Shown in pieces: positions 43,566 to 60,021 of a DNA stretch of 64,000 nt; the first letter of the stretch is position 1; every line of letters begins with the position of its first letter. A program made the position numbers and the translations under genes. The notes under the pieces are model-generated. The model was not told the origin of the DNA and searched no databases. It saw only the letters and a program-made list of their open reading frames with translations. Source of the DNA: a bacterium (GTDB taxonomy: Bacteria; Electryoneota; Electryoneia; Electryoneales; Electryoneaceae); assembly GCA_963669175.1 (NCBI GenBank), contig OY769902.1:3648001-3712000 (forward strand), written 5' to 3'.

Positions 43566-45305
43566 ATGAACAGGTTATTTGCTTTGGTTTCTCTTCTGTT
43601 TTTATTCCTGCTGGTTATCCCTTCCCTTTCCTTTTCCCAGGTATTCCTGAACGAGAATTTTGAACGGGATCAAAACTCCTGGCCCTGGATGACCACTGAG
43701 ACAAGCGGCTGGGAATGTGAGCCCTGGCCTGCCTTTCATCCTGACTACACGTGGGGTGTAGAAAGAGAAGCAATCTATCGTTATATAGGCAATGACTATG
43801 TCCAATCGCTTTGGTGTTGCGGTCTGCCTAATAATCTGATTGCTGGCTCAGATGATTATATGCCCGGGCAGGAATCATGGGCAATATGGGGACCGTTCAG
43901 CACAACACAAGAGCTGATTTCCATTGTGGGGCGGTTTTATTTGTGGGCTGATAGTGAACCCTGGAACGATGGCGAAGGCGACAATTTCTACATGCTCGCT
44001 GCCGAAGATCCTGAATTTACCAATATGGAAGACTGGAACATTGCATTCGATTTGAGCAGTGCCGAAGATTTAGAACCGGGATCATTTAATTGTATCAGTT
44101 TTGATCTTAACCAGACGTGGGATTGGAACGGCAACTCCGTCAATATGATTACGATAGGTGAAGCGACGGACGACCTGTATATAGCATTTGTATTCATATC
44201 TGATGACGATGACAATACCGGTTCTGGCGTCTTCATTGATGATATCTTTATGCACGGGTATCCGGCAGATGTTTTTGATTTCGCGAAACATCAGATTAGC
44301 TTCTGCTTGTATGATGATGGTGAGTATAGAACTACCGATTTACTTTGCATGTCTGACAACTTGTATACATTGAATAACTTTTCTGTTTTTGGTATCACGG
44401 AAATAGAAGTGCAGCATGTTCTGTATGTCAATGAAGATGTGTTGAATCCTGCTTCTGAGTATGTTCCTGTTGATACCATGACTGGGAGATGGTCCGGAAG
44501 CTCAGTTGATTATACCTTTTTTACCCCTCGTTATGAAACTCCCCTGGTTTTTTCCGACACGGGCCTGGTTGGCATTAAAGTTGTTTTGGACGTGGAAAAC
44601 ATTATCGAAGAGACTGACGAGGAAAACAATGTACTGATTGATACTGTAAGAATCCTGATGCCCCAGACACAGCCGGAAATGGAATGGTTGGAGCTTGGCG
44701 GTGCTTATGAGACTGATTCATTGGTCTTTGTTGACCCATCTTCCCCCACCCTCAGTGTACGTTACCATGCAACAAATCATCCTGTTGAAGAATTAGCCAG
44801 TTTTGAATTCTTCATCGGGAGCGACATGGACTCTGTAATACAGAGCATTCCACAAAGCAGAGTCACAATCGACAATGAAGAGCACCTTGCAGAAATCGAC
44901 ATGGCCACCTATCCTCTTGATACGCCTGTCTATTTCGGAGCCTATCTGGTTGATAGGGTAACCGACCCAGTCTATTCTTATGCCCCGAAACGTATTGTAA
45001 GCACAAATTCAGTTGGTGACGATACTGAGAAGGGCGCGATCCCAGGTGAGTTTCAGATTGTATCAGCCTATCCCAACCCCTTCAATCCGACTGTAGAATT
45101 GACCTTCACCATGCCCCAGGCAGGCGAGATTGAACTTCGCTGGTATTCGCTTGAAGGCAGGCTCGTATCACGTCAAATCAGAACCGTATCCGCCGGGTAT
45201 CCAGTCCTGAGCTGGACTCCGGATGGTCTCGCCAGCGGTGTTTACCTGTTGCAGGCGCATACTCCCTTTGGAGTGGCCAATGCCCGTGTTATCTATCTGA
45301 AATAA
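43566..45305 (+). CDS. Secreted acidic protein with a T9SS type A sorting domain (paralog 2 of 3)
   Basis: Signal peptide, NENFERD..WPW, EETDEENN, AYPNPFNP...LASGVYL...YLK; the TAA stop abuts the element's left end. Confidence 0.85.
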   Translation: MNRLFALVSLLFLFLLVIPSLSFSQVFLNENFERDQNSWPWMTTETSGWECEPWPAFHPDYTWGVEREAIYRYIGNDYVQSLWCCGLPNNLIAGSDDYMPGQESWAIWGPFSTTQELISIVGRFYLWADSEPWNDGEGDNFYMLAAEDPEFTNMEDWNIAFDLSSAEDLEPGSFNCISFDLNQTWDWNGNSVNMITIGEATDDLYIAFVFISDDDDNTGSGVFIDDIFMHGYPADVFDFAKHQISFCLYDDGEYRTTDLLCMSDNLYTLNNFSVFGITEIEVQHVLYVNEDVLNPASEYVPVDTMTGRWSGSSVDYTFFTPRYETPLVFSDTGLVGIKVVLDVENIIEETDEENNVLIDTVRILMPQTQPEMEWLELGGAYETDSLVFVDPSSPTLSVRYHATNHPVEELASFEFFIGSDMDSVIQSIPQSRVTIDNEEHLAEIDMATYPLDTPVYFGAYLVDRVTDPVYSYAPKRIVSTNSVGDDTEKGAIPGEFQIVSAYPNPFNPTVELTFTMPQAGEIELRWYSLEGRLVSRQIRTVSAGYPVLSWTPDGLASGVYLLQAHTPFGVANARVIYLK

Positions 45306-45404
45306 GGAAATACTTCCGGTAGGTTTGGCGATTTGCTTCTTGTTTGCGACCTTTGTATTCGGGTTGGCAATCGGAAGCGATCGCGTAACATGCTGGAGGA
45401 CAAG

Positions 45405-46238
45405 ATGTTACATACTTCAACGAGCCTGTATGACCGGTGTATGGAGAAGACGCCGGAGCAGGTGTTTGTGAACTCGCTTCGTCGCGAGTTTGAGCTTTCA
45501 CCGGCTGCGAGTACGGGGATATTGGAGCTTGCCAAGCGTTGTTTGTTCGGTACGATGCCGTCAACGCTTGGCAAGCTTCGTTTTTTATGTGCGTCCAAGA
45601 AAGCTCGTCACGGTCGTCCCTTACGCGAACAAGACCTGATTCGTGTCGAACTGACACTGGATGACGGTGTTGAGGACTTGGATGTTCTGCGCGAACTGGG
45701 CGCTTCATCGCTTCGTCAGCAACGGATTCTTCGGCTAACCGAAGAGACGTACCAGCAGGGTGGGTTGCTGACACAGGAGGATCTGAGTCGTCTGCTGCAC
45801 GTTTCAGATCGGACCATCCGCAAGGATATTGCGTTGCTGCTTGCTGACGGGAATACGGTGCATACGCGTGGCTACGACCATGACATTGGGCGTGGGTTAT
45901 CGCACAAGGCACGGATCGTTGATTTGTACCTGGGTGGCCGGACCTATGATGAGATCATCCGTCTGACACGTCACAGCGCGTTTGCGATCAAGCGCTATGT
46001 GAGTACGTTTGGACGCTTGTTGCTTCTGCTTAGCCATGACATTACCGAGCTGACCGACCTGAGCCGTCTGCTTCAACAGAGCGAACGGTTGACGGGTGAG
46101 TACCTGGATCTGTTTGCAAAATACAAACAGGGTGATCACTGGCCGACAAGCTATGTCGAACTTCTGGAGCAGTTGCAAGCACAGTATCCCTCAAAAAAAA
46201 GAGCGGGACAAGGTGGCGGAGGCGTCCATGAAAACTGA
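45405..46238 (+). CDS. DUF1670-like HTH protein, OrfA of the element
   Basis: QQGGLLTQEDLSRLLHVSDRTIRKDI (HTH) and TRG..HDIG.G.SHK..I..LY motif, recognised from memory as DUF1670; GGAGG RBS before ATG 45405. Confidence 0.75.
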   Translation: MLHTSTSLYDRCMEKTPEQVFVNSLRREFELSPAASTGILELAKRCLFGTMPSTLGKLRFLCASKKARHGRPLREQDLIRVELTLDDGVEDLDVLRELGASSLRQQRILRLTEETYQQGGLLTQEDLSRLLHVSDRTIRKDIALLLADGNTVHTRGYDHDIGRGLSHKARIVDLYLGGRTYDEIIRLTRHSAFAIKRYVSTFGRLLLLLSHDITELTDLSRLLQQSERLTGEYLDLFAKYKQGDHWPTSYVELLEQLQAQYPSKKRAGQGGGGVHEN

Positions 46239-47058
46239 GGTACGGAACCGTTATGAATCCCTGCCGAAGCGGAACTTTCGCACTGCGATCATCCGGTTGT
46301 TGGAAGAGCAGTACAAGATTCTTGGCAGCCACAAGGTCTTGGCCATGGTGGCGGATGACATCATGCAACTGCACCGTGAGTTCTATCCGGATATCGAGCA
46401 ACGCAGCGGTGGCAGTATTGTGTGGCGTACGACAGGTGCACAGTGCCACAAGCCCAGCTATGGGACACGGGTAGAAGACTATGAGGTGAAGACCGTCATT
46501 CTTCCGCTTGTCACTGAAGAAGATGTGGTTGATCGTATTCGTCGCCACTATGGAAAAGACGGTGCGGGCAAACAGCGCGACAGGGATATTGCAGTGCTGG
46601 CGCGGTTGGTGAAAAGCGCGTACGAACAAGGCGGGTTATTAAGCGGCGCGGAATTGAGTGTGTTGTTGAACCGGTCGCTGACGACCATTGGCAAGTACAT
46701 CCAACAGTATCATGAAACGCATGATGACATCCTGCCGACGAAAGGAATCATGTTGGACCAGGGAAGCCGTCCCACACACAAGGCCGCAATCATTGACCTG
46801 TACGAACAGGGCTATCCGGAACCGGATATCGCTCGCTTGACCACGCATACCCTTGAAGCGGTGGGTCGTTACTTGCGATCTTACAAAAACATCAAGTTCC
46901 TGATGGTCAAAGAACTTAATCTGATGGAAATTGTGCGTACTACCGGACTCGGACGTAGTACAGTGGTCCAATATCAGAAACTGGTGATGCAGTATCATCC
47001 TGACCTTAAACCTAAAGATAAACAAAAAGATACAACGAAAAAGGACAAGAAAAAGTAA
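46228..47058 (+). CDS. DUF1670-like HTH protein, OrfB of the element
   Basis: EQGGLLSGAELSVLLNRSLTTIGKYI and TKG...DQG...THK..I..LY, a paralog of OrfA; GGAGG RBS before ATG 46228. Confidence 0.75.
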   Translation: MKTEVRNRYESLPKRNFRTAIIRLLEEQYKILGSHKVLAMVADDIMQLHREFYPDIEQRSGGSIVWRTTGAQCHKPSYGTRVEDYEVKTVILPLVTEEDVVDRIRRHYGKDGAGKQRDRDIAVLARLVKSAYEQGGLLSGAELSVLLNRSLTTIGKYIQQYHETHDDILPTKGIMLDQGSRPTHKAAIIDLYEQGYPEPDIARLTTHTLEAVGRYLRSYKNIKFLMVKELNLMEIVRTTGLGRSTVVQYQKLVMQYHPDLKPKDKQKDTTKKDKKK

Positions 47059-47334
47059 CCACTATCAACTGAAAACCTACCGGAAATATTTCCTAATAGT
47101 AAATAGACAAGATTTAGAAAGAAGCGTCACTGGGTTATTTCCAAATCACATTTTTTCAGAATATTGCAGGAGAATCATTGTTTGAATCTTGCTTTTTAAA
47201 CTCTCATACAGATATATTTTATCTGTTGGGAGAGGCCACCTTTCAGCACACCGTCGCGCTCTGTTCGGATTTCATAATCCGCAGTAACAGGCGCGTTTTT
47301 CTTTGTACCCAACCATCGACGCGGAGAACTGATC

Positions 47335-49089
47335 ATGAATACGATGCGTGGTACCGTTGTGCTTTCTTTCCTGCTGGTAGCTATTCTTCTGCTACCTATC
47401 TCCACCCAGGCGCAGATGATCCTGAACGAGAATTTTGAGCAGGATTCGGATACCTGGCCATGGACAACTGGTATGACTTCAGGTTGGCAGTGTGCTCCCT
47501 GGCCTGCAACCCACCCGAACAACTATACATGGGGTGTTGAGGACAGTTGTGTATACCATCGCGTCCATGACGGCTGGTATCGATCCATGTTCTGCAATGG
47601 CCTGCCAGACAACCTGAGTCCAGGTATTGACGATTATATGCCCGGTCAGGAATCCTGGGCAGTATGGGGGCCATTCGATGCGACACTGGAAATGGTGACC
47701 GTTATCGGCAACTTCTACGCCTGGTCCGATGTTGAACCGTGGGATGATGGAGAAGGTGACAACTTCTACATGCTGGCAGCGGTTGATCCCCAGGATCTGG
47801 TTATGGAAAACTGGGATATCGCTTTCGATATGGGCAATGATGAAAGCTTCCTTCAAAGCCATTGGACCTCTGTAGGCTTTAACCTGAACCAGATGTGGGA
47901 TTGGGATGGTAATCCTGTCAGCCTGATTCCCGAAGGTCAGGCAGTGGAAGATATCTATATTGCATTCGTTTTCATTTCCGATGATGATGACAATACCGGG
48001 CTGGGTGTTTTCGTTGATGATATCTATGTTTCCGGGTATGACGGCTCGTATGATTTTGAAATTGATGAACCTGACTTCATGGTTTATGAAGATGGCGAGC
48101 TGGAAACATGTTCGGGGTTCACGACGGAAGATGAAGTATATGTCGCAAACAACTTCACCTCATTTGGTCTACCCCTCGAGTATGCGACCAGCCATGTTCT
48201 ATACCTCAATGAAGATGTGATGAATCCTGAATCAGAATATGTGCCAATCGATACCATGACTGCTATCTGGCCAGCCAACCCACTGCTGGGGACCATTATT
48301 GATTCTCTGTTCCAATTGCCTTTGACATTTTCCGATACAGGCTGGGTAGGTGTGAAAATAGTTCTTGACGCTCCTGACGATGTCGTGGAAATCGACGAAG
48401 AGAACAATACCTACATTGACACTTTTTATGTAACCTTCCCGCAGACTCGTCCGGAAATGATTTGGCATGACCTGAACGGAAGCGATGAAACAGATACCGA
48501 AGTAACGGTTGATCTTTCTGAACGTACGACTCTGATCATTGATTACACAGCGATGAATTACCCCATTCAGGACAACGCGACCATTTCATTTGGTATCGGC
48601 GAGGAACTTGATTCTACCGGCAGCTTCATCGGCAGCCTGACCAACCTGACGATTGACAATGAGCAGCATCAGGTTGAATGGGATGTGTCGGACATGCCGC
48701 AGAATCGTGAATTCTACCTGTTTGCTTACCTGACTGACAATGCGACCGCGCCTGTCTACAGTTATGCTTCCCAACAGGTAATCATTATAACCCCGGTCAA
48801 GGATGTATCGTCCGATGCGGGTATTCCTGAGAAGTTCGCAATTGCTTCCGCATACCCGAATCCATTCAATCCGACCGTGGAAGTGCAATTTGCCATGCCA
48901 CAGGCCGGTCAGATTGAAATGCGCTGGTACTCACTGGAAGGACGCCTGGTCGATCACCAGGTAAGAACAGTTTCAGCGGGGTATCCGGTGCTTGGCTGGA
49001 CACCACATAGTCTCGCCAGCGGTGTATACCTGCTACAGGCTGAGACACCGTCCGGGATCGCAAATACAAGGGTGTTTTATCTGAAATAG
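47335..49089 (+). CDS. Secreted acidic protein with a T9SS type A sorting domain (paralog 3 of 3)
   Basis: Colinear with 43566-45305 (DDYMPGQESWA.WGPF, EPW.DGEGDNFYMLAA, AFVFISDDDDNTG.GVF); AYPNPFNP tail. Confidence 0.88.
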   Translation: MNTMRGTVVLSFLLVAILLLPISTQAQMILNENFEQDSDTWPWTTGMTSGWQCAPWPATHPNNYTWGVEDSCVYHRVHDGWYRSMFCNGLPDNLSPGIDDYMPGQESWAVWGPFDATLEMVTVIGNFYAWSDVEPWDDGEGDNFYMLAAVDPQDLVMENWDIAFDMGNDESFLQSHWTSVGFNLNQMWDWDGNPVSLIPEGQAVEDIYIAFVFISDDDDNTGLGVFVDDIYVSGYDGSYDFEIDEPDFMVYEDGELETCSGFTTEDEVYVANNFTSFGLPLEYATSHVLYLNEDVMNPESEYVPIDTMTAIWPANPLLGTIIDSLFQLPLTFSDTGWVGVKIVLDAPDDVVEIDEENNTYIDTFYVTFPQTRPEMIWHDLNGSDETDTEVTVDLSERTTLIIDYTAMNYPIQDNATISFGIGEELDSTGSFIGSLTNLTIDNEQHQVEWDVSDMPQNREFYLFAYLTDNATAPVYSYASQQVIIITPVKDVSSDAGIPEKFAIASAYPNPFNPTVEVQFAMPQAGQIEMRWYSLEGRLVDHQVRTVSAGYPVLGWTPHSLASGVYLLQAETPSGIANTRVFYLK

Positions 49090-49508
49090 TTGCCCTGGTT
49101 CAGGCCGCTATTTGTAGAAGTTGCGCGGTTTTTAACTGACTTTTACCATGCGGGTGATCGCATCTTAGCGGTTACCCGCTTTTTTCGCCTTTCCCGACTT
49201 GCTCATCCCCTTCATCTCAGGCCGACGATTTTCCAGTGTCGTCAACATCTCCATAAGGTCCATACTCAACTTCGGCAAATCGGGCCACGCACGCGGTTGA
49301 TTGCGTCATGCAGATATCCGGCCAATCGGACCATACAGTCTGTTTTCCTTTTTCACTTTTTTCACTGTCCACTTTTTTCACTTCTACACATATCATAGAA
49401 CAGCCTCCATTTTGGCTCCTGCAAGAATCTTGTATTCCAGAAAAATTCTCGACAGTTTATGTGATTATTCTGTTTGACCGCTTGAATTGATTGTGGCAAG
49501 GGCTTTCC

Positions 49509-52436
49509 ATGCGTTTTTACTTACTGGCAGTAGTATTCCTCCTGATGCTACTGACTATCCAGATTGTAAAATCACAACCATTTGAAAATGGTTTCGAATT
49601 CCCAATTGCGTTTTTCGATACCACCTCTTCTCCCTTCCTGCCGGCAAACCGTCCCAGTCCCATTGGACCAGAGTCAATTGTCACCATTTCAGAAGAAGGA
49701 CACTTCCTGGTTGGTGGCGAAAGAATTCGTTTTTTTGGCATGAACCTGGATAGCGACGCCAACTATCCACCCTATGAGCTGGCTGATTCCATAGCTGCAC
49801 GTCTGGCCTATCTTGGTGTAAACATTGTCCGCATCCACAAACTGGATCAGGCCTGGGATGGGCTGTCAATCTTCCTTGACGACAGCAACACGCGAACATT
49901 TGACATGGAAAAAGTGGATCGTGTTGACTATTTCATTTCACGTTTGAAGGCGCATGGTGTATACGTTGACATGAACCTGCTTGTTTACCGCAAGTTCAGA
50001 CCGGGTGATGGTGTAGCGAATGCCAACAGCATACCGGCAGGAGCGTCCGGTGTAGCTTTCTTTGATCAACAACTCATAGATCTTCAAAAGGAATACGCAG
50101 AATTTCTCCTTGGACATGTGAACCCGTATACGGGAATACCTTTAGCTGAAGATCCTGTACTGGCGATTATTGAAGTTGTCAATGAGAACTCGTTATATGA
50201 ATGCTGGTATAACAACCGTTTCAAACCATCGTGGGATGGTGGGGTGATGCTTCAGCGTCACCTGGATCAGCTTGACAGCATGTGGACAGCCTTCCTGCGT
50301 GAGAAGTATCAAACTCATACCAACCTGGAACTTGCCTGGCAGGGCGCATTCTGTCCGGAAACACCAATGCCTGATGGCGGTTTCGAAGAACAGTCCGCAG
50401 CTTCACCGTGGCAATTGCAGGTTATATCACCAGCAGAAGCTGAATTTGTGATCATTGAAGATGAAAACGCCCCCGAAGGAAATCACATTGGATCAGTAAC
50501 CATTACAGAATCTGCATCGAACAACTGGGCCATCAAGTTAGGACAAAATGGTTTTCCTGTATCCCCGGATTCCATCTACATTTTCAAATTCATGTCCAGG
50601 GCTGATCGAGTTACATCCTATACAGTAGCTGCGCAGGAAGCCGTATCACCTTACCGTCCCATCCAGTCAAAACTCATCAGCCAGAATACAGACTGGCGAG
50701 AAACGATTTTCACCTTTAAACCGACCGTCGAGATGCGTGATGTATTCCTCTCGGTTGCCCTGGGACGATCACGCGATACTTTCTATTTTGACGATTTTCG
50801 TTTCTTTTCCACAACAGGTGGAGGGTTGCAGGAAGGAGAAAACCTGGATTCCGGGACGGTAGCGATCATTCCCTACCAGTCAAGCGCTCTTTATACGGAT
50901 CAGCGAGTTGAGGATACCAGCGAATTTATAGCACAGGTTATGCTCACCTATTCTGACGATATGATTGAGTTCCTCCGTGAAGACTTGGGCGTCAATGCTG
51001 CAATTGATGTCATGAACTGGCGTTATGGTCCGGTAGATTTGCTTATACAGGAAAACTGTGATCTTGTCGACCAGCACTTTTACTGGGATTTGCCGCCTTC
51101 TCAAAATGTCTCCGATGACTGGTACATCCATAATCAATCCATGATCGCTGAACCCTATAACCCGGTTACAGCGGCCATTCCATATTCACTTGTTGAAGGG
51201 AAACCATATATCATCAGCGAGTTTAACCACATTTTCCCAAACCGTTATCAGTGTGAAGGATTGCCCATTATGACAGCTTATTTAAGCTATCATAACGTGG
51301 ATGGCATGTTCATTTTCCAGTATAATCACTCCGACAACTGGTCCAGCGACAGGATCGAAGGGTTCCATGAAGTAGATGCCAATCCTGTATTGCTGGTACA
51401 GTCAATGATTTCGTCGTATGCCTATAGAAATAACCTGATTTCCACTTCCGCATCACCACTGTCCTGCCAGATGAGCCGAGAAGATATTTATACCTGGCCC
51501 AAGTATTTCCCTGCCAACTGGGGGCTTCTGCCATATGATCGCCTGTTGATCTTTATGAGAAGCCTGAAACTTGAATCACTGGACGCAGACTCATCGACAG
51601 ACTTGACATACATCCCCATCCCATCAAATGAGTTTCAGACGGATACGGGTGAGACAACCTGGGACTTTGACGGTATGGTGTCTACTGTTGCGCCAGGCTA
51701 CATCACCATCACCGGGTTCCTGGATCACTATGAAGGCTGTGAGTATGGTCCTGTGATCCTGGAACAGGGGCCGGAACATGCGAGCCTGACCTGGATGTCA
51801 CTTACAGAAGATCAACTTGTAGAATCGCAAAAGTCGCTCCTGACATTTGTAACCCAGGCTCAGAATGAAGGCATGTCACTTGAGCCGTTGAATCCGACTC
51901 AATGGTGGTGTGATCGCAGTAACGGTGGCTGGGGCAATGCGCCCACCCAGGTTAGACCTGAGCAAATTTCCTTTGCTGTCACATCCTCAGCAGATTCATT
52001 GCGCCTGATTCCTCTCGATTCACATGGCCAACCACGCTACGATGACCAACGCTACTACTACCGGGATGCCAACAGCCGATTTTATATTGACCTGGACCAA
52101 TATGTTGACCAAACCCTCTGGTATGGAGTCGAACTATTCTTCTCGTCTCCCTCGGATTCAGACGGGGTTCTCCCGACAGCATTCCAGCTTGATGGATGCT
52201 ATCCGAACCCATTCAACAACTCGACCCGGGTTATATTTAAGCTGTCATCTGCGCAAACATTGAGGCTTACAGTATTTGATATCCTTGGACGAGAAGTTTC
52301 ACATCAATACATGTACGGAAAACCAGGAACAAATAAGGTGACGATTGCCCTTGAAAATCACTCCAGCGGAATCTATTTCTGCAGGTTTGAGGGGCAGAAT
52401 GTGTCGGAAACTCTGAAAATGACACTTTTACAGTGA
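49509..52436 (+). CDS. Secreted glycoside hydrolase (clan A, GH5-like) with an inserted CBM4/9-like domain and a T9SS sorting domain
   Basis: GERIRFFGMN, GVNIVRIH, HVNPYTG, NENS (acid/base), IISEF (nucleophile), DGGFEE CBM-like start, CYPNPFN tail. Confidence 0.75.
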   Translation: MRFYLLAVVFLLMLLTIQIVKSQPFENGFEFPIAFFDTTSSPFLPANRPSPIGPESIVTISEEGHFLVGGERIRFFGMNLDSDANYPPYELADSIAARLAYLGVNIVRIHKLDQAWDGLSIFLDDSNTRTFDMEKVDRVDYFISRLKAHGVYVDMNLLVYRKFRPGDGVANANSIPAGASGVAFFDQQLIDLQKEYAEFLLGHVNPYTGIPLAEDPVLAIIEVVNENSLYECWYNNRFKPSWDGGVMLQRHLDQLDSMWTAFLREKYQTHTNLELAWQGAFCPETPMPDGGFEEQSAASPWQLQVISPAEAEFVIIEDENAPEGNHIGSVTITESASNNWAIKLGQNGFPVSPDSIYIFKFMSRADRVTSYTVAAQEAVSPYRPIQSKLISQNTDWRETIFTFKPTVEMRDVFLSVALGRSRDTFYFDDFRFFSTTGGGLQEGENLDSGTVAIIPYQSSALYTDQRVEDTSEFIAQVMLTYSDDMIEFLREDLGVNAAIDVMNWRYGPVDLLIQENCDLVDQHFYWDLPPSQNVSDDWYIHNQSMIAEPYNPVTAAIPYSLVEGKPYIISEFNHIFPNRYQCEGLPIMTAYLSYHNVDGMFIFQYNHSDNWSSDRIEGFHEVDANPVLLVQSMISSYAYRNNLISTSASPLSCQMSREDIYTWPKYFPANWGLLPYDRLLIFMRSLKLESLDADSSTDLTYIPIPSNEFQTDTGETTWDFDGMVSTVAPGYITITGFLDHYEGCEYGPVILEQGPEHASLTWMSLTEDQLVESQKSLLTFVTQAQNEGMSLEPLNPTQWWCDRSNGGWGNAPTQVRPEQISFAVTSSADSLRLIPLDSHGQPRYDDQRYYYRDANSRFYIDLDQYVDQTLWYGVELFFSSPSDSDGVLPTAFQLDGCYPNPFNNSTRVIFKLSSAQTLRLTVFDILGREVSHQYMYGKPGTNKVTIALENHSSGIYFCRFEGQNVSETLKMTLLQ

Positions 52437-55539: not shown

Positions 55540-57174
55540 CTAGTACATGCCTCCGCCCATGCCGCCACCCGGCATCGGGGGCATAGCAGGCGCGTCTTCC
55601 TTGGCGTCGTTGATCGTCGCTTCGGTCATCAGCAGAACGGATGCGACAGACGCGGCATTTTCCAGTGCGGTACGGGTAACCTTGGTCGGGTCAATGACAC
55701 CGGCGCTCAGCAGGTTGTCGTACTTGCCGGTCAGGGCGTTGTAACCGAAATCATCCTTGCCGTGCTTGACTTCGTTGACCACGACAGCGCCTTCAACACC
55801 GGCGTTGGTGGCAATCATGCGAAGCGGCTCTTCCAGGGCGCGCAGGATGATATGACGACCGATTTCCTCGTCGCCTTCGAAACTGACTTTTTCCAGGGCC
55901 GGAAGGGTGCGAACCAGGGCGACACCGCCACCAGGCACGATACCTTCTTCGACTGCGGCGCGTGTAGCATGCAGGGCATCTTCCACACGGGCTTTCTTTT
56001 CCTTCATCTCGACTTCAGTCGCGGCGCCGATATGCAGCACGGCAACACCGCCGGCCAACTTGGCCAGACGTTCCTGCAACTTTTCACGGTCGTAGTCGGA
56101 TGTGGTGGTTTCGATCTGCTTCTTGATCTGCTCGATACGGGCCTTGATATCGGTAGCTTCGCCAGCGCCTTCGACGATCGTGGTGTCGTCCTTGGTCATA
56201 ACGATGCGCTTGGCTGTGCCCAGATCATCCAACTGGGTGTTTTCCAGCTTGAAGCCGGCATCTTCGCTGATGACACGGCCACCGGTGAGGATGGCGATGT
56301 CTTCGAGCATGGCTTTACGACGGTCGCCGAAGCCCGGAGCCTTCACGGCCGCGATCTTCAGGGTGCCACGCAGCTTGTTGACCACGAGGGTCGCCAGCGC
56401 TTCGCCTTCAACTTCTTCCGAGATGATCAACAGGCCCTTGCCCATCTGGGCAACACGCTCGAGAATCGGCAGGAGGTCTTTCATGACGCTGATCTTCTTG
56501 TCGTAGATCAGGATCATCGGATCTTCGAGAACTGCTTCCATGTTGTCGGCATCAGTCACAAAGTAGGGAGACAGGTAGCCACGGTCGAACTGCATACCCT
56601 CGACCACTTCCATATAGGTATCAATACCCTTGGCTTCGTCAACGGTGATAACGCCGTCATTGCCGACCTTCTCCATGGCGTCCGCGATCAGCTTGCCGAT
56701 TTCATCGTCGTTATTGGCGGAAATAGCGCCAACCTGGGCGATGGTGTCACGGCTGCCGCCGACTTCCTTGGACAGGTTCTTCAGTTCGCTCACGACCACA
56801 CCGACGGCCTTGTCGATACCACGCTTGAGCAGCATCGGGTTGGCGCCGGCCACGACGTTACGGAAACCTTCAGCGACAATCGCCTGGGCCAGAACGGTTG
56901 CTGTGGTGGTGCCGTCACCAGCGATATCCGAGGTTTTGCTGGCAACTTCACGGACCATCTGGGCGCCCATGTTCTCAATGGGATCTTCCAGTTCAACTTC
57001 CTTGGCTACGGTGACGCCGTCCTTGGTTACGGTCGGGGCGCCGAACTTCTTGTCAATGACCACATTGCGGCCACGGGGACCAAGAGTAACCTTCACAGCC
57101 TTCGCCAGCTTGTCTACACCGCGCTTCAGGCCATTGCGGGCTTCCTGATCAAATACGATCTCTTTATGTGCCAT
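55540..57174 (-). CDS. groEL: Chaperonin GroEL
   Basis: [29 protein letters not shown]-rich tail. Confidence 0.98.
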
Positions 57175-57211
57175 CTTTTTAACTCCTCTTAAAAGCTGCT
57201 TGTGTTACAGG

Positions 57212-57511
57212 TTACTTCTCTAAGACACCAAGAATATCGCTGCGATTGACCAGCAGGAACTCCTCGTCGTCAACCTTGACTTCAGTGCCGCCGTACTTGG
57301 AGAACAGGACACTGTCACCAACCTTGATCAGTTCTGACAAGGGCTTGCGATCCAGATCCTTGTTTACAACATCATCACCCAAAGCGACTACTTTGCCGAC
57401 CTGGGGACGTTCTTTTGCTGCGGTATCCGGAATAATAATTCCGCCAACCTTGCGCTCTTCTTCTTCCACGACCTTCAAGAGTACGCGTTCATCAATCGGA
57501 CGTACCTTCAT
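57212..57511 (-). CDS. groES: Co-chaperonin GroES
   Basis: GGIIIPDTA, KVGDSVLFSKYGGTEV. Confidence 0.97.
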   Translation of the reverse strand: MKVRPIDERVLLKVVEEEERKVGGIIIPDTAAKERPQVGKVVALGDDVVNKDLDRKPLSELIKVGDSVLFSKYGGTEVKVDDEEFLLVNRSDILGVLEK

Positions 57512-57569
57512 CGTAGATCCTCCTGGTTTTTAAAAGTTACCCATAGCTGGGTGGTTTCGCTTTGCCGCC

Positions 57570-57596
57570 CTGGCACTCTCCCGTTGGATGTGCTAA
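57570..57596. promoter_or_regulatory. CIRCE element (HrcA operator) 1
   Basis: CTGGCACTC-N9-ATGTGCTAA upstream of groES. Confidence 0.75.
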
Positions 57597-57655
57597 ATCA
57601 AGCTGTATGACAAAGCCTACCATGTTATGAATATCAATAGCTTACAAAAAGAAAA

Positions 57656-57682
57656 CTAGCACTCATCAGAGTTGAGTGCCAA
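57656..57682. promoter_or_regulatory. CIRCE element (HrcA operator) 2
   Basis: CTAGCACTC-N9-GAGTGCCAA. Confidence 0.85.
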
Positions 57683-57954
57683 TGATCAGAAACATAGGTT
57701 TCCAACCGCATTGAGTCAACGATCAATGTACCCGCCGTCTCTGCAAGGGGTGTGCCGAACTCCGGTTTGCTCTCAACCGGTTTCCGCACCTCCCATTATT
57801 GCCCCGTTATACCCTTTCTCCTCCATCCTGTTCCCTGCTCCCTCTTCACGGCGCAACTCCAACAGCGTAGCACCCTTGCAGGTCAAACCTGTATATTGAG
57901 CCTGATCGATTCAGCAGAATTGTCCAGACAGGTTTTCAAACTGAGCAGGAAAGC

Positions 57955-60021
57955 GTGAAGTCTTCCAGAGAGCCATTTCAGCCAGACAGATTCTCTTTCA
58001 TACTGGCACACTCTCGCAATAAAGGCAGAATGCCTGTCATTGTGGCAGTAGTCTTCTCCCTTCTATGCTGTATGGCTTTGCCTTCGTTTGCCCAGACTTC
58101 ATCTGAAAATCCGAAAAAGCCGCCTATACCTGGATCAAAACCGGTTCCATCTGCGTTGCCTGCCGAATCGGACAGCACGCTGCTTCCCTATGACAGCCTG
58201 GCTACCGATTCGCTTGCCGACCAGCGACGCCGACGCCAGCGTTCTGCGCCAGCCTTTGTTCCGGACACAACTGCCCCGGCTCCGGCATTATTCCCGGCCA
58301 TGCGATTCGAACGGGATGTTTTCTGGCGTATTTCTTATAAGGATGCCGGTGAAGCGATTGGAATCGCACCGGGCTTGTTCCCGCGTCAGAGCAGTTATTA
58401 CGCGGAACCGTTCCACCTGACACCTCCCGGCGGCGACGGACGTGACCTGCTGGTTCTTTACCGTGGACGTCCTTTCAATGATCCCGTCACCGGGGCAGCA
58501 ACCATGAGCGCCTTTGCTGTGGAAGAAATGGCCTCTTATGACCTGTCGCCCACATGGTCCGGCGTTGGCCCTTCCTCCTCCGGTCCGGTGCTCAAGTTGA
58601 ATCAGCCATATCGTTACCCGGTGAAGCCGATGACACGTGTTATCTATCGCCAGGGGTTCTACGGCCTGGGGCATGCCGACTGGCGTATTCAGCAGAAAGT
58701 GTCGCCGTATTTCCGGTATTACTTCGGTCTTGATTATGGGCAGTATGAGGGACGCAAACCCAACACCGATTCACAGCCGACCTGGATACGTCTGGGTGGA
58801 CGTCAGAAGCTCTACGATTGGGGCTATCTTGACTTCGCCTGGATGCAGAACCGCATTGAATATGGTTATGCAGATCGATCCGGCATACGGCGTACACACC
58901 GGAACGATGTCGATCTCGCCTTCACCCGGAATACCCATGGCGACAGCCTGCGTTGGACTGCTGCTGGCTGGTACGTCCGTTCTGAACGGAAATACTACCG
59001 GGGTAAAGAGGACGGCAACCGTCTCGGCTTCCGGTTTAACCACCAGCGACAACTGACAAATCGTGAAGTAGAACTACAGTTGGATGTAGAGCGTACAGCC
59101 GCCCTGTTCGGCACTTTCCCGGTAATTGAGAATCCCAAGGGTGACCGTACTGTCGCAGGCCTGACCGCCTCAGACAAGTTGACATTGGACCTGTTCACGG
59201 CGGGGTTGAGCCTGCGTGCGGAAACAGGCAATCGTGCCGAAAAGGCGGATGGCAGTGGTGAACGCTGGCTGACACGTTTCGGCGGAACAGTGAACGCAGA
59301 ACTGGGTGACTCCACCGGACATGGCCTGCTGGGACTGGCGACATTGGGTTGGCGCTGGCCGTCGCTGGATGAATCTTACGGTTTCTGGAAAACCAATACC
59401 CCGGAACGCTACGTGGACCTCTTCCCCGTCCCGGATTCGATTCTCAGTTATTCCGGCAATGGCGCTCTGGATCCTGTGGGCGGTCTGTTTGCCGGCGGCG
59501 GCTATCGTTACCGTATAAATGAACGCTACCATCTTCGGGTCATGGCTGGCTATCGAAAATATATTGATCCGATCAACGTGGTAATGACCGCGCCGAAAAC
59601 GTATACTCGTGAAACCGGTGACGATGTGGATGGCCTGGAGGTGACCGGATTCGCCTGGCTGCCGGTTTGGGGGCCGTTCTCGACCACGGGAAGCTGGACC
59701 ATGAGCAGCCTGCCCGATGAAGGTGTCCCCATCCCCAACGAATGGGGATTCGCCGGACTGCGGTACGAGCAGTTCTTCTACAATGGTCAATTACGCTGGC
59801 GGGCAACTGCCGACGCGCGATACTGGGGTGATTACACCTACCTCGGCGTCACTGAAGAAGGTCGCTGGCACTTCAACGGCATGATCTCCGCAAAAGTTCT
59901 GAGCTTCGAAGTCTACTTCGGGTACAACAACTTCCTCAGCAACCTGTACGAATTCCAACCCGGCTATCCCTCCATGTTCCGTGAAGAATTCTGGGGAGTG
60001 CGCTGGACGCTGTGGAATTAG
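57955..60021 (+). CDS. Putative outer-membrane beta-barrel protein (TonB-receptor or putative-porin-like); true start may be ATG 58030
   Basis: Signal peptide, plug-like segment, alternating beta strands, C-terminal WGVRWTLWN. Confidence 0.65.
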   Translation: MKSSREPFQPDRFSFILAHSRNKGRMPVIVAVVFSLLCCMALPSFAQTSSENPKKPPIPGSKPVPSALPAESDSTLLPYDSLATDSLADQRRRRQRSAPAFVPDTTAPAPALFPAMRFERDVFWRISYKDAGEAIGIAPGLFPRQSSYYAEPFHLTPPGGDGRDLLVLYRGRPFNDPVTGAATMSAFAVEEMASYDLSPTWSGVGPSSSGPVLKLNQPYRYPVKPMTRVIYRQGFYGLGHADWRIQQKVSPYFRYYFGLDYGQYEGRKPNTDSQPTWIRLGGRQKLYDWGYLDFAWMQNRIEYGYADRSGIRRTHRNDVDLAFTRNTHGDSLRWTAAGWYVRSERKYYRGKEDGNRLGFRFNHQRQLTNREVELQLDVERTAALFGTFPVIENPKGDRTVAGLTASDKLTLDLFTAGLSLRAETGNRAEKADGSGERWLTRFGGTVNAELGDSTGHGLLGLATLGWRWPSLDESYGFWKTNTPERYVDLFPVPDSILSYSGNGALDPVGGLFAGGGYRYRINERYHLRVMAGYRKYIDPINVVMTAPKTYTRETGDDVDGLEVTGFAWLPVWGPFSTTGSWTMSSLPDEGVPIPNEWGFAGLRYEQFFYNGQLRWRATADARYWGDYTYLGVTEEGRWHFNGMISAKVLSFEVYFGYNNFLSNLYEFQPGYPSMFREEFWGVRWTLWN

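What the first reader, a model, noticed from the sequence alone, without database searches (positions are those of the whole stretch)
45303..47096. Intact-looking mobile element encoding only two DUF1670-like proteins and no recognisable transposase
Seen: 21 bp terminal inverted repeats with one mismatch, TAA directly outside both ends, and two paralogous ORFs of about 277 aa, each with a GGAGG RBS, filling the 1,788 bp. Removing the element and one TAA restores CTGAAA-TAA-TAG, so it sits exactly at the host gene's stop codon without damaging the protein. I see no DDE/RNase H, HUH or serine-recombinase signature. Both ORFs share QGGLL-HTH, T(R/K)G-x3-D-x-G-x3-(S/T)HK and H-x6-RY (TRHSAFAIKRY, TTHTLEAVGRY). 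Inference: OrfA's HKAR...H...Y loosely resembles the H-x-x-R...H...Y catalytic box of tyrosine recombinases. This is either a new IS class mobilised by a DUF1670 heterodimer, or a non-autonomous derivative of a larger element whose transposase acts in trans.
Basis: partly seen in the sequence, partly recalled or inferred. Interest (0 to 1): 0.85.

Follow-up and report, generated by a model that had tools for sequence, protein, structure and literature searches.

The report
Mobile element targeting secretion-gene ends
This is a small jumping gene, present in seven near-identical copies, that inserts only at the very end of genes for type IX-secreted proteins, repairs the gene end with its own last codon and stop, and carries just two related proteins of unknown function that match no known transposase.

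Summary
Window 45300-47100 is a 1.8 kb element with 21-bp terminal inverted repeats. It encodes only two overlapping DUF1670 (PF07900) paralogs. The genome holds 7 near-identical copies, one copy at 67% identity, and scars.

All 8 copies here, and 43 relatives in other genomes, lie at the stop codon of a gene ending in a T9SS type A sorting domain (51 of 51 tails hit TIGR04183). All are in the same orientation as that gene.

Three orthologous empty sites in a sister genome fix the insertion point just 5' of the gene's last Lys codon. The element brings its own AAA-TAA. The original Lys-stop (here AAATAG, 47101-47106) is displaced to the right end, after a 7-nt spacer. Any duplication is at most 2 bp (AA).

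No DDE, DEDD, HUH, serine or tyrosine recombinase domain was detected by Pfam, NCBIfam or fold search. The proteins look like an N-terminal alpha/beta domain, a winged helix and two HTH repeats. The "H...RY" motif lies in those repeats, so the tyrosine-recombinase analogy is weak.

No longer copies and no other IS with these ends were found. IS630-type DDE genes were not found in 4 of 5 carrier genomes. I read this as a new IS-like family, probably mobilised by the DUF1670 pair. Catalysis is unproven.

The parts
43566..45299 (+). Host gene: T9SS cargo protein (579 aa with the next two codons) ending in a type A sorting domain. Its body ends at CTG 45297-45299.
   Evidence: ORF. Last 90 aa hit TIGR04183 at E 3.7e-07, 30 bits against a cut-off of 23. 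Pfam Por_Secre_tail E 6e-4.
45300..45305 (+). AAA-TAA: the Lys codon and stop that now finish the host gene. They travel with the element (or form the junction core).
   Evidence: Invariant in 8 of 8 copies here. In 67 elements the left hexamer was AAA+stop in 64 and never AAG. Absent from the orthologous empty sites.
45306..45326 (+). Left terminal inverted repeat GGAAATACTTCCGGTAGGTTT. Its outer 12 bp (45306-45317) form a near-palindrome.
   Evidence: Same type of end in relatives.
45405..46238 (+). orfA, 277 aa, DUF1670 paralog A (shorter N-terminal part, wHTH, HTH repeats). GGAGG at 45394-45398.
   Evidence: PF07900 E 2e-45, HTH_11 E 1.7e-7. 469 homologues. pN 0.27 vs pS 0.65 against the divergent copy.
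46228..47058 (+). orfB, 276 aa, DUF1670 paralog B (full-length match). GGAGG at 46217-46221. Start overlaps the end of orfA by 11 nt.
   Evidence: PF07900 E 9e-49. 1628 homologues. AF2 model pLDDT 90.7. pN 0.22 vs pS 0.73. The same 11-nt overlap occurs in L034.
47073..47093 (+). Right terminal inverted repeat AAACCTACCGGAAATATTTCC. Its outer 12 bp (47082-47093) form a perfect palindrome.
47094..47100 (+). Element-borne right-end spacer TAATAGT, between the repeat and the host's displaced Lys-stop.
   Evidence: Invariant in the 7 copies. Replaced by GAAACGT in the divergent copy and by TAAACGT, TTGT, ATGT or AGT in other subfamilies. Retained in two solo sites.
47101..47106 (+). AAA-TAG: the host gene's original last Lys codon and stop, displaced to the right of the element.
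   Evidence: In the 7 copies this hexamer varies among AAATAG, AAGTAG and AAGTGA. It was AAR+stop in 55 of 67 elements. It equals the gene end at the orthologous empty sites.
47335..49089 (+). Neighbouring paralogous T9SS cargo gene ending CTG-AAA-TAG. It is an unoccupied site of the same kind.

Best explanation
Window 45300-47100 is one copy of an autonomous, IS-like, site- and orientation-specific mobile element that belongs to no described family.

Shown:
- It is multi-copy and recently active.
- It has 21-bp terminal inverted repeats whose outer 12 bp are palindromes.
- It carries only two conserved, translationally coupled genes for DUF1670 paralogs.
- It inserts immediately 5' of the last Lys codon of genes that end in a T9SS type A sorting domain, always co-oriented with that gene.
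- It supplies its own AAA-TAA, so the secreted protein is unchanged. The original Lys-stop sits behind a 7-nt spacer at the right end. At most 2 bp (AA) are duplicated.

Inferred:
- OrfA and OrfB act together, probably as a hetero-oligomer. Each binds the palindromic ends through its wHTH and HTH repeats.
- They recognise the DNA that encodes the conserved C-terminal strand (...K-M-x-L-L-K-stop).
- They most likely also carry out breakage and joining, using a conserved polar set shared by both paralogs: R/K-G, D/N-x-G, (S/T)-H-K, H-(S/T), (R/K)-Y.
- The junction geometry fits either a conservative exchange with a 2-bp AA crossover against a circular form whose joined ends read ...TTTCC-TAATAGT-AAATAA-GGAAA..., or a cut-and-paste insertion with 0-2 bp duplication.
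- Transcription probably comes by read-through from the host gene, because the host terminator now lies behind the element.
For: Mobility:
- 7 copies differ by 0-5 positions of 1794. There is one copy at 67% identity and a 154-bp fragment.
- In two public runs the element assembles as its own 1803-bp contig, at depth 157 and 220 against 24-30 for the flanks.
- Homologues sit mostly on 1.7-2.5 kb contigs.
- Distribution is patchy: 3 of 79 genomes of the phylum, G000 included. Other carriers hold up to 13 pairs per genome.

Target:
- All 51 upstream gene tails scanned hit TIGR04183.
- Of 67 elements with a clear inverted repeat, 64 have AAA+stop on the left and 55 have AAR+stop on the right.
- In 19 of those 55 the two hexamers share only AA.
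- Three of three orthologous empty sites read [codon]-AAR-stop, against [codon]-AAATAA-element-TAAACGT-AAR-stop when filled.

Autonomy:
- OrfA lies directly upstream of OrfB in 79 of 80 loci.
- Both genes are under purifying selection.
- Antisense ORFs have no Pfam hit, and in two relatives checked they differ in size and position.
- No other sequence in the genome carries these ends with 4 or fewer mismatches, apart from the copies and scars.
- The other IS of the genome (IS110, DDE_5, IS3, IS630, IS4/5, IS1182 types) have different ends.
- DDE_3 was found in only 1 of 5 other carrier genomes. It was not found in G044, a 6.5 Mb genome whose loci come from a chromosome-level record and which holds 13 DUF1670 pairs.

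A and B acting together:
- Natural fusions carry 2-3 DUF1670 units in one protein of 530-950 aa.
- Complex prediction gave weak support: score 0.39 against a best control of 0.00. That mark was reached by 58 of 80 solved complexes and 2 of 110 mismatched pairs, but at 0.60 or under by only 7 of those 80 solved complexes and by both mismatches that passed. Runs agreed in at least 81% of contacts, and partner pLDDT was at least 67.

Conserved polar residues:
- OrfB: H184 and Y215 are invariant. R126, G173, D177, G179, K185, H207 and Y249 are at 90% or more in 79 sequences down to 23% identity.
- OrfA: R155, G156, H167, K168 and Y198 are invariant, and H190 is at 90% or more.
Against: - No catalytic domain was detected. 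Pfam and NCBIfam gave only DUF1670 and HTH families.
- Foldseek against the PDB gave no hit at E <= 1e-3.
- VIA-align gave a best Z of 6.4, and only winged-helix and HTH domains matched.
- The N-terminal domain folded alone had pLDDT 70 and a best Z of 4.0.
- A profile search against PDB sequences found only a designed HTH repeat protein.
- The invariant Tyr sits at a repeated HTH position (Y215 and Y249), so it may be structural rather than catalytic.
- No circular junction or empty site was seen in this organism's own runs, although these are contigs, which drop rare variants.
- A host enzyme cannot be excluded.
- ISfinder could not be queried.
Confidence: 0.6

Rival explanations
1. The DUF1670 pair only binds DNA, giving end recognition, target choice and synapsis. 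DNA breakage and joining are done by a host-encoded enzyme such as a chromosomal tyrosine recombinase, in the way IMEX elements borrow XerCD.
For: Every recognisable part of the proteins is a DNA-binding fold. The ends are palindromes, and joining them would give a dyad-symmetric site. Two solo sites keep exactly one palindrome plus the spacer (TAA-GGAAGATCTTCC-TAATAG-TAA and TAA-GGAAGATTTTCC-TAACAG-TAA), as if the two end palindromes had recombined.
Against: Both end palindromes are complete at every insertion. A single reciprocal exchange at a one-palindrome site cannot produce that at a naive target. The 12-bp palindromes do not look like a 28-bp dif site (recalled, not tested). Invariant His, Lys and Tyr residues in two paralogs down to 23% identity are unusual for pure HTH proteins. 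No candidate host partner was identified.
Confidence: 0.25
2. The element is non-autonomous. A classical transposase of another IS in the cell, for example IS630-like, recognises its ends and moves it in trans. The DUF1670 genes are passengers or regulators.
For: The weak Pfam HTH hits (HTH_23, HTH_28, HTH_29) are, from memory, types found in the DNA-binding parts of IS630/Tc1 transposases. This genome has 5 copies of an IS630-type element, whose end begins ACTAGTGCCAtTTT. That resembles the TAGTGCCATTTGG ends of one DUF1670 subfamily in other genomes.
Against: Nothing else in this genome carries the GGAAATAyTTCCGGTAGG ends. DDE_3 was not found in 4 of 5 other carrier genomes, including one with 13 DUF1670 pairs. 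No locus or fusion joins DUF1670 to a known transposase domain. Both ORFs are intact and under purifying selection in every subfamily. The junctions do not show the TA duplication of IS630.
Confidence: 0.07
3. One reading: DUF1670 is a tyrosine-recombinase analogue (H-x-x-R ... H ... Y) that inserts with a 3-bp TAA duplication.
For: Invariant His and Tyr with nearby Arg and Lys in both paralogs. Insertion is site- and orientation-specific with almost no duplication, which suits conservative recombination.
Against: There is no match to Phage_integrase and none in the fold searches (which are inconclusive). The motif lies in tandem HTH repeat units, with Tyr at the same place in both units. The TAA duplication is contradicted by 19 of 55 junction pairs that share only AA, and by the empty sites.
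Confidence: 0.12
4. It is not a mobile element. It is a regulatory gene pair that spread together with duplicated T9SS genes by homologous recombination.
For: The flanking genes are paralogous families with similar 3' ends.
Against: The flanks of the 7 copies are unrelated beyond the last few codons on the left and 6-9 nt on the right, while the element itself is 99.7-100% identical. Sharp boundaries, inverted repeats, orthologous empty sites and presence across several phyla all indicate transposition.
Confidence: 0.01

Closest known systems
Tn7 insertion at attTn7 (TnsD pathway)
   Same: It uses a conserved protein-coding 3' end as a safe-haven signal and inserts in one orientation without harming the gene (recalled knowledge).
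   Different: Tn7 has one site per genome, about 25 bp beyond glmS. It makes a 5-bp duplication and needs TnsABC+D with a DDE-type TnsB. Here there are hundreds of potential sites (about 230 Lys-ending T9SS-like genes). Insertion is inside the last codon boundary, and there are only two small HTH-rich proteins.
Integrative elements in tRNA/tmRNA gene 3' ends (tyrosine integrases)
   Same: The element carries a copy of the gene's 3' terminus, so the gene stays intact and the original terminus is displaced to the far end. Insertion is orientation-specific (recalled knowledge; geometry shown).
   Different: The replacement here is only 6 bp (Lys + stop). There are 21-bp terminal inverted repeats. 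No integrase is encoded.
IS110/IS1111 family and IS607 family
   Same: Small IS with site- and orientation-specific insertion and 0-2 bp duplication. A 2-bp crossover as in serine transposases would fit the AA core (recalled knowledge).
   Different: Those encode DEDD or serine catalytic domains, and IS110 types use a guide RNA. Neither domain was detected here, and no Rfam family matched. The IS110-type elements of this genome are separate, with 12 copies.
IS630/Tc1-mariner
   Same: Terminal inverted repeats, a 2-bp footprint at the junction, and the same Pfam HTH types (HTH_23/28/29) that those transposases carry in their DNA-binding part (the link to IS630 is recalled).
   Different: No DDE_3 domain is present. 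The junction dinucleotide is AA, not TA, and there is a 7-nt asymmetric spacer at one end. Target specificity is strict.
REP/BIME-targeting IS (IS1397, ISKpn1)
   Same: They insert into a short sequence motif repeated many times per genome (recalled knowledge).
   Different: Those are IS3-family DDE elements that target extragenic palindromes, not a coding 3' end.

Membership tests
Pfam PF07900 (DUF1670) | Match to the family HMM above its gathering score | tested here: met
   OrfA scored 155 bits and OrfB 166 bits against a cut-off of 25.
Insertion sequence (generic) | Several near-identical copies with sharp common boundaries in unrelated flanks | tested here: met
   7 copies with 0-5 differences over 1794 bp and unrelated flanks. 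Depth ratio of about 6-7 in the runs.
Insertion sequence (generic) | Terminal inverted repeats | tested here: met
   21 bp with 1 mismatch. Conserved types in relatives.
Insertion sequence (generic) | Empty sites exist | tested here: met
   3 of 3 orthologous sites in G047 for copies of the related element in G044. None was found for the 7 copies of this genome.
Insertion sequence (generic) | Encodes its own transposase | not testable with these tools
   Only OrfA and OrfB are conserved. Their catalytic activity is inferred, not shown.
IS630/Tc1-mariner | DDE_3 catalytic domain | tested here: not met
   No hit in OrfA or OrfB. Not found in 4 of 5 carrier genomes.
IS630/Tc1-mariner | TA target duplication abutting both inverted repeats | tested here: not met
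   The shared junction bases are AA, and the right repeat is separated from them by 7 nt.
Tyrosine recombinases | Phage_integrase catalytic domain or fold with the R-K-H-R-H/W-Y residues | tested here: inconclusive
   No Pfam or NCBIfam hit. None appeared among the fold matches, which does not exclude a distant relation. The His/Tyr motif lies in HTH repeats.
Serine recombinases / IS607 | Resolvase catalytic domain with an N-terminal Ser | tested here: inconclusive
   Only a sub-threshold hit to the resolvase HTH (HTH_7, E 0.0044), and no catalytic domain. The N-terminal domain gave no fold match, best Z 4.0.
IS110 (DEDD) and IS200/IS605 (HUH) | DEDD_Tnp_IS110 / Transposase_20 or Y1_Tnp domain | tested here: not met
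   No hit in OrfA or OrfB. The genome's IS110 elements are separate loci.
ISfinder families as modelled by NCBIfam | Match to a transposase model at its cut-off | tested here: not met
   The best match was the IS21 model at E 0.052, 13 bits against a cut-off of 160. ISfinder itself could not be searched.
MITE / non-autonomous derivative | No conserved coding capacity, and a longer autonomous partner with the same ends | tested here: not met
   Two intact ORFs are under purifying selection. No longer partner was found.
T9SS type A sorting domain (host gene) | TIGR04183 match at the C-terminus | tested here: met
   51 of 51 upstream tails matched. The window's gene scored 30 bits against a cut-off of 23.

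The most novel reading that the evidence does not exclude
The DUF1670 A/B pair is a previously unrecognised class of DNA transposase or site-specific recombinase. It is built from a small alpha/beta domain plus winged-helix and HTH repeats, with no RNase H-like, HUH, serine or tyrosine recombinase fold. It reads about 15-20 bp of sequence encoding the conserved end of T9SS sorting domains. It inserts its 1.8 kb element scarlessly with a 2-bp (AA) exchange. If so, PF07900, including the Methanosarcina members, marks a new mobile-element superfamily.
Probability: 0.4. Interest if true: 0.92.

Novelty: new variant of a known kind. Interest (0 to 1): 0.8.

Why it matters
- It gives a function-level context to a Pfam DUF with more than a thousand members: the two genes of a mobile element.
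- It adds what looks like a new IS family that current annotation calls 'hypothetical', 'biotin operon repressor' or 'CsgD regulator'.
- The target logic is unusual. The element uses the DNA that encodes a conserved secretion signal, repeated up to hundreds of times per genome in T9SS-bearing phyla, as a safe landing pad. It also repairs the gene with its own last codon and stop.
- If the two roughly 277-aa proteins do the chemistry, they would be a new and compact sequence-specific DNA insertion system. They would also be a new catalytic solution for transposition.
- For genome annotation, it explains contig breaks at T9SS gene ends in assemblies of Ignavibacteria, Bacteroidota, KSB1, Marinimicrobia and related groups.

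Tried and rejected
TAA as a target duplication was rejected. AAATAATAGTAA as the native target was also rejected, because it occurs 0 times unoccupied in the genome.

A 4-bp AATA or 5-bp AAATA duplication was rejected. In 3 of 7 copies here, and in 19 of 55 junction pairs overall, the left and right hexamers share only AA.

A single-palindrome attP/attB exchange was rejected as the primary insertion route, because naive empty sites lack the palindrome. It remains possible for the two solo sites.

Empty sites for this genome's own copies were not found. This covers the same-genus genome G001 and four family members and the contigs of runs X1-X3. No contig joins across the element. These are contigs, so rare forms would be lost.

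The genome-contig scan with the single protein found nothing. The wide alignment A1 was too diverse for that tool, and the narrower A2 worked.

tblastn of OrfB against plasmids gave no match. Rfam gave only two sub-threshold chance-level rows. The promoter and terminator scan was not above the shuffles.

ESM Atlas gave only HTH_23/GerE clusters at 0.81 or less, which is a lead only. Fold searches found no nuclease or recombinase fold. This does not show that the fold is new.

Literature:
- 'DUF1670' returned 0 papers.
- 'PF07900' returned 0 papers.
- The four-term T9SS / insertion sequence search returned 1 unrelated preprint, seen in the listing only.
- 'Por_Secre_tail' + 'transposase' returned 1 unrelated paper, seen in the listing only.
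- 'novel transposase family' and related terms returned 0 papers.
- I read no paper. Supplements are closed. Statements about Tn7, tRNA integrases, IS110, IS607, IS630, IMEX/Xer and REP-targeting IS are recalled, not looked up.

The T9SS-like gene count comes from a crude regular expression, not an HMM.

In some searches, only 51 of 78 elements were scanned. The 78 are 70 loci with an inverted-repeat call plus 8 copies of this genome. The 51 are those with an upstream frame of at least 60 codons ending within 10 nt of the repeat. The other 27 had short or truncated left flanks or a mis-called repeat.

In one search, 12 of 67 elements lacked a right Lys-stop. Five of these are cut by contig ends, and two have mis-placed repeats.

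Full report
**1. What is in the window**

The sequence reads ...CTG AAA TAA | GGAAATACTTCCGGTAGGTTT ... AAACCTACCGGAAATATTTCC | TAATAGT AAATAG ACAAG. The 21-bp inverted repeats (45306-45326 and 47073-47093) differ at one position. The outer 12 bp of each are a palindrome or near-palindrome.

Between the repeats lie two ORFs on the + strand. orfA is 45405-46238 (277 aa) and orfB is 46228-47058 (276 aa). Each is preceded by GGAGG, and they overlap by 11 nt. Both match PF07900 (DUF1670) at E 2e-45 and 9e-49. The only other Pfam hits are weak HTH families: HTH_11, HTH_23, HTH_28, HTH_29 and HTH_7. No NCBIfam transposase model comes near its cut-off; the best is IS21 at 13 bits against 160. The two proteins are 33% identical over 132 residues.

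**2. It is a mobile element**

- The genome is one contig of 5.45 Mb. It holds 7 copies with 0-5 differences over 1794 bp, one copy at 67% identity, and a 154-bp left-end fragment.
- In two public runs of the same organism the element is a separate 1803-bp contig (45300-47102). Its depth is 157 and 220, against 24-30 for the flanks.
- OrfB has 1628 homologues and OrfA 469 in the large protein collection, mostly on contigs of 1.7-2.5 kb. Their only names are 'hypothetical', 'DUF1670', 'biotin operon repressor' and 'CsgD regulator'.
- In genome contigs, 163 stretches encode relatives, and 80 loci were fetched. By record title they come from Ignavibacteria, Melioribacteraceae, Bacteroidota, KSB1, Marinimicrobia, Caldithrix, Cloacimonadota, Gemmatimonadota, Eisenbacteria and others.
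- An OrfA-like frame lies directly upstream of OrfB in 79 of 80 loci. The exception starts 146 nt before OrfB.
- Within the window's own phylum the family was found in only 3 of 79 genomes, G000 included.
- Other carriers hold up to 13 pairs.

**3. Target**

All 7 copies and the divergent copy follow a gene whose product ends ...L-(L/V)-K.

I took the last 90 or fewer residues of every upstream frame that stayed open for at least 60 codons and ended within 10 nt of the repeat. That gave 51 of 78 elements examined. The other 27 had short flanks or mis-called repeats. All 51 hit TIGR04183, the T9SS type A sorting domain. Every element is co-oriented with that gene.

**4. Exact junction**

The left hexamer is AAATAA in 8 of 8 copies here. 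Only 48 of about 230 Lys-ending T9SS-like genes of this genome end in AAATAA, and those 48 include the occupied ones.

To the right of the repeat there is an invariant TAATAGT. After it comes a hexamer that varies between copies: AAATAG four times, AAGTGA twice and AAGTAG once.

Across 67 elements with a clear repeat:
- The left hexamer is AAA+stop in 64 and never AAG.
- The right hexamer is AAR+stop in 55, with AAG in 19 of them.
- In 19 of those 55 the two hexamers share only AA.

Three copies in genome G044 have orthologous, unoccupied sites in genome G047, with flanks 80-90% identical.
- Empty sites read TTG-AAATAG, ATC-AAGTAG and CTT-AAATAG.
- Filled sites read TTG-AAATAA-[element]-TAAACGT-AAATAA, ATA-AAATAA-[element]-TAAACGT-AAGTAG and CTC-AAATAA-[element]-TAAACGT-AAATAA.

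The element therefore enters just before the last Lys codon, or within its first two bases. It supplies a new Lys-stop and pushes the original one to its right end. The duplication is at most 2 bp.

In the window, the unit is 45300-47100 and the displaced host Lys-stop is 47101-47106. The restored site is most likely CTG-AAA-TAG, as in the neighbouring paralog.

**5. Derivatives**

- Two T9SS genes of this genome carry only AAATAA plus the first 13-14 nt of the left repeat (C1:800638 and C1:2946992).
- Two solo sites in other genomes keep one 12-bp palindrome plus the spacer: AAATAA-GGAAGATCTTCC-TAATAG-TAAATAG and AAATAA-GGAAGATTTTCC-TAACAG-TAAATAG. The second follows a gene ending ...KMILLK.
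- These look like recombination between the two end palindromes. I cannot tell whether it was enzymatic or by slippage.

In the Melioribacteraceae subfamily the native sequence after the stop is itself a palindrome (AGTGnC...GnCACT). It resembles the element's end TAGTGCCAAATGGC. I leave this unexplained.

**6. What the proteins are**

- The AF2 model of OrfB is confident, with pLDDT 90.7.
- Foldseek finds nothing at E <= 1e-3.
- VIA-align gives a best Z of 6.4. It matches only residues 113-177 (winged helix, including the CAP-like domain of Topo VI-A/Spo11 at Z 6.2 and 5.3, which I take as generic) and residues 179-259 (sigma region 4, LuxR, DeoR and TrpR-like HTH).
- The N-terminal 112 residues folded alone gave pLDDT 70 and a best Z of 4.0.
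- A profile of 79 diverse OrfB-type sequences hits only a designed HTH repeat protein in the PDB. That hit shows residues ~180-215 and ~216-249 to be tandem repeat units.
- The invariant Y215 and the near-invariant Y249 occupy the same place in the two units. This weakens the idea of a catalytic tyrosine.
- Still, both paralogs keep R/K-G, D/N-x-G, (S/T)-H-K, H-(S/T) and (R/K)-Y down to 23% identity. That is more than I would expect of plain HTH proteins.
- Longer relatives are fusions of 2-3 DUF1670 units. None is fused to a known catalytic domain.
- Complex prediction for A+B gave weak support only. The score was 0.39 against a best control of 0.00, a mark reached by 58 of 80 solved complexes and 2 of 110 mismatched pairs. 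At 0.60 or under it was reached by only 7 of those 80 solved complexes and by both mismatches that passed. Runs agreed in at least 81% of contacts, and partner pLDDT was at least 67.
- Both genes are under purifying selection. pN/pS is 0.27/0.65 for orfA and 0.22/0.73 for orfB against the divergent copy.

**7. Autonomy**

- Nothing else in the genome has these ends with 4 or fewer mismatches.
- Self-comparison finds other IS of the IS110, DDE_5, IS3, IS630, IS4/5 and IS1182 types, all with different ends.
- DDE_3 (IS630 type) was found in 1 of 5 other carrier genomes. It was not found in G044, which has 13 DUF1670 pairs.
- Antisense ORFs have no Pfam hit, and in the two relatives checked they differ in size and position.
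- A host recombinase cannot be excluded.

**8. Comparison and novelty**

In its logic the element resembles three known systems:
- Tn7 at glmS, which uses a conserved coding 3' end as a safe site.
- Integrative elements in tRNA genes, where the element replaces the gene's 3' end.
- IS110 and IS607 types, which insert site- and orientation-specifically with 0-2 bp duplication.

It shares the defining catalytic domain of none of them. These comparisons are recalled, not looked up. Five literature searches found nothing on DUF1670 or on IS at T9SS gene ends. ISfinder could not be searched. I file it as a new variant of a known kind: an IS-like element of a new family. There is a substantial chance that its proteins are a new class of recombinase.

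**9. Verdict**

Interest is 0.8.

Noticed in passing
G000:C1:800638-800651 and C1:2946992-2947004 (outside the window): Two further T9SS-type genes end AAATAA followed by only the first 13-14 nt of the left repeat and then unrelated DNA. They look like scars of old insertions.
   Followed up: partly
G000:C1:2071034-2071187 (L009): A 154-bp left-end fragment at 78% identity follows a frame ending ...AMNK with AAG-TAA. Here the left hexamer is AAGTAA, not AAATAA.
   Followed up: no
L127 (G042:C9:302779-302799) and L128 (G045:C280:84660-84680): Solo sites: one 12-bp palindrome plus the 6-nt spacer, flanked by Lys-stop hexamers. One lies directly behind an element of another DUF1670 subfamily, and one lies behind a T9SS gene.
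   Followed up: partly
L061 4579-4613; many places in G041: A hairpin of about 35 nt (AAACCTCCGGGG...CCCCGGAGGTTT) is repeated on both strands at dozens of places in a Melioribacteraceae genome, often right after T9SS genes. It is terminator- or REP-like.
   Followed up: no
G000:C1:1200590-1200876 (L129 7590-7876): A stretch of about 230-290 bp matches more than 80 places, on both strands, in the same-genus genome G001. It is probably a MITE-like repeat.
   Followed up: no
G000, whole genome: Other IS families are present: IS110 type (about 12 copies), DDE_5 type (7), IS3 type (6), IS630 type with a split frame (5), IS4/5 and IS1182 types. The IS630-type end ACTAGTGCCAtTTT resembles the TAGTGCCATTTGG ends of one DUF1670 subfamily in other genomes.
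   Followed up: partly
G044:C1, e.g. 56543-58049: The same genome holds a second DUF1670 subfamily in 6 copies beside the 7 copies of the AAACG type. Its ends and targets were not examined.
   Followed up: no
window 43566-45305, 47335-49089, 49491-52436: Three consecutive genes for large secreted proteins are present. The first two are paralogs, and two of the three have a T9SS sorting tail by Pfam. Only the first carries the element.
   Followed up: partly
control genomes: Among 14 named control genomes PF07900 was found only in Methanosarcina acetivorans. I did not check whether the archaeal members are also IS-like pairs.
   Followed up: no
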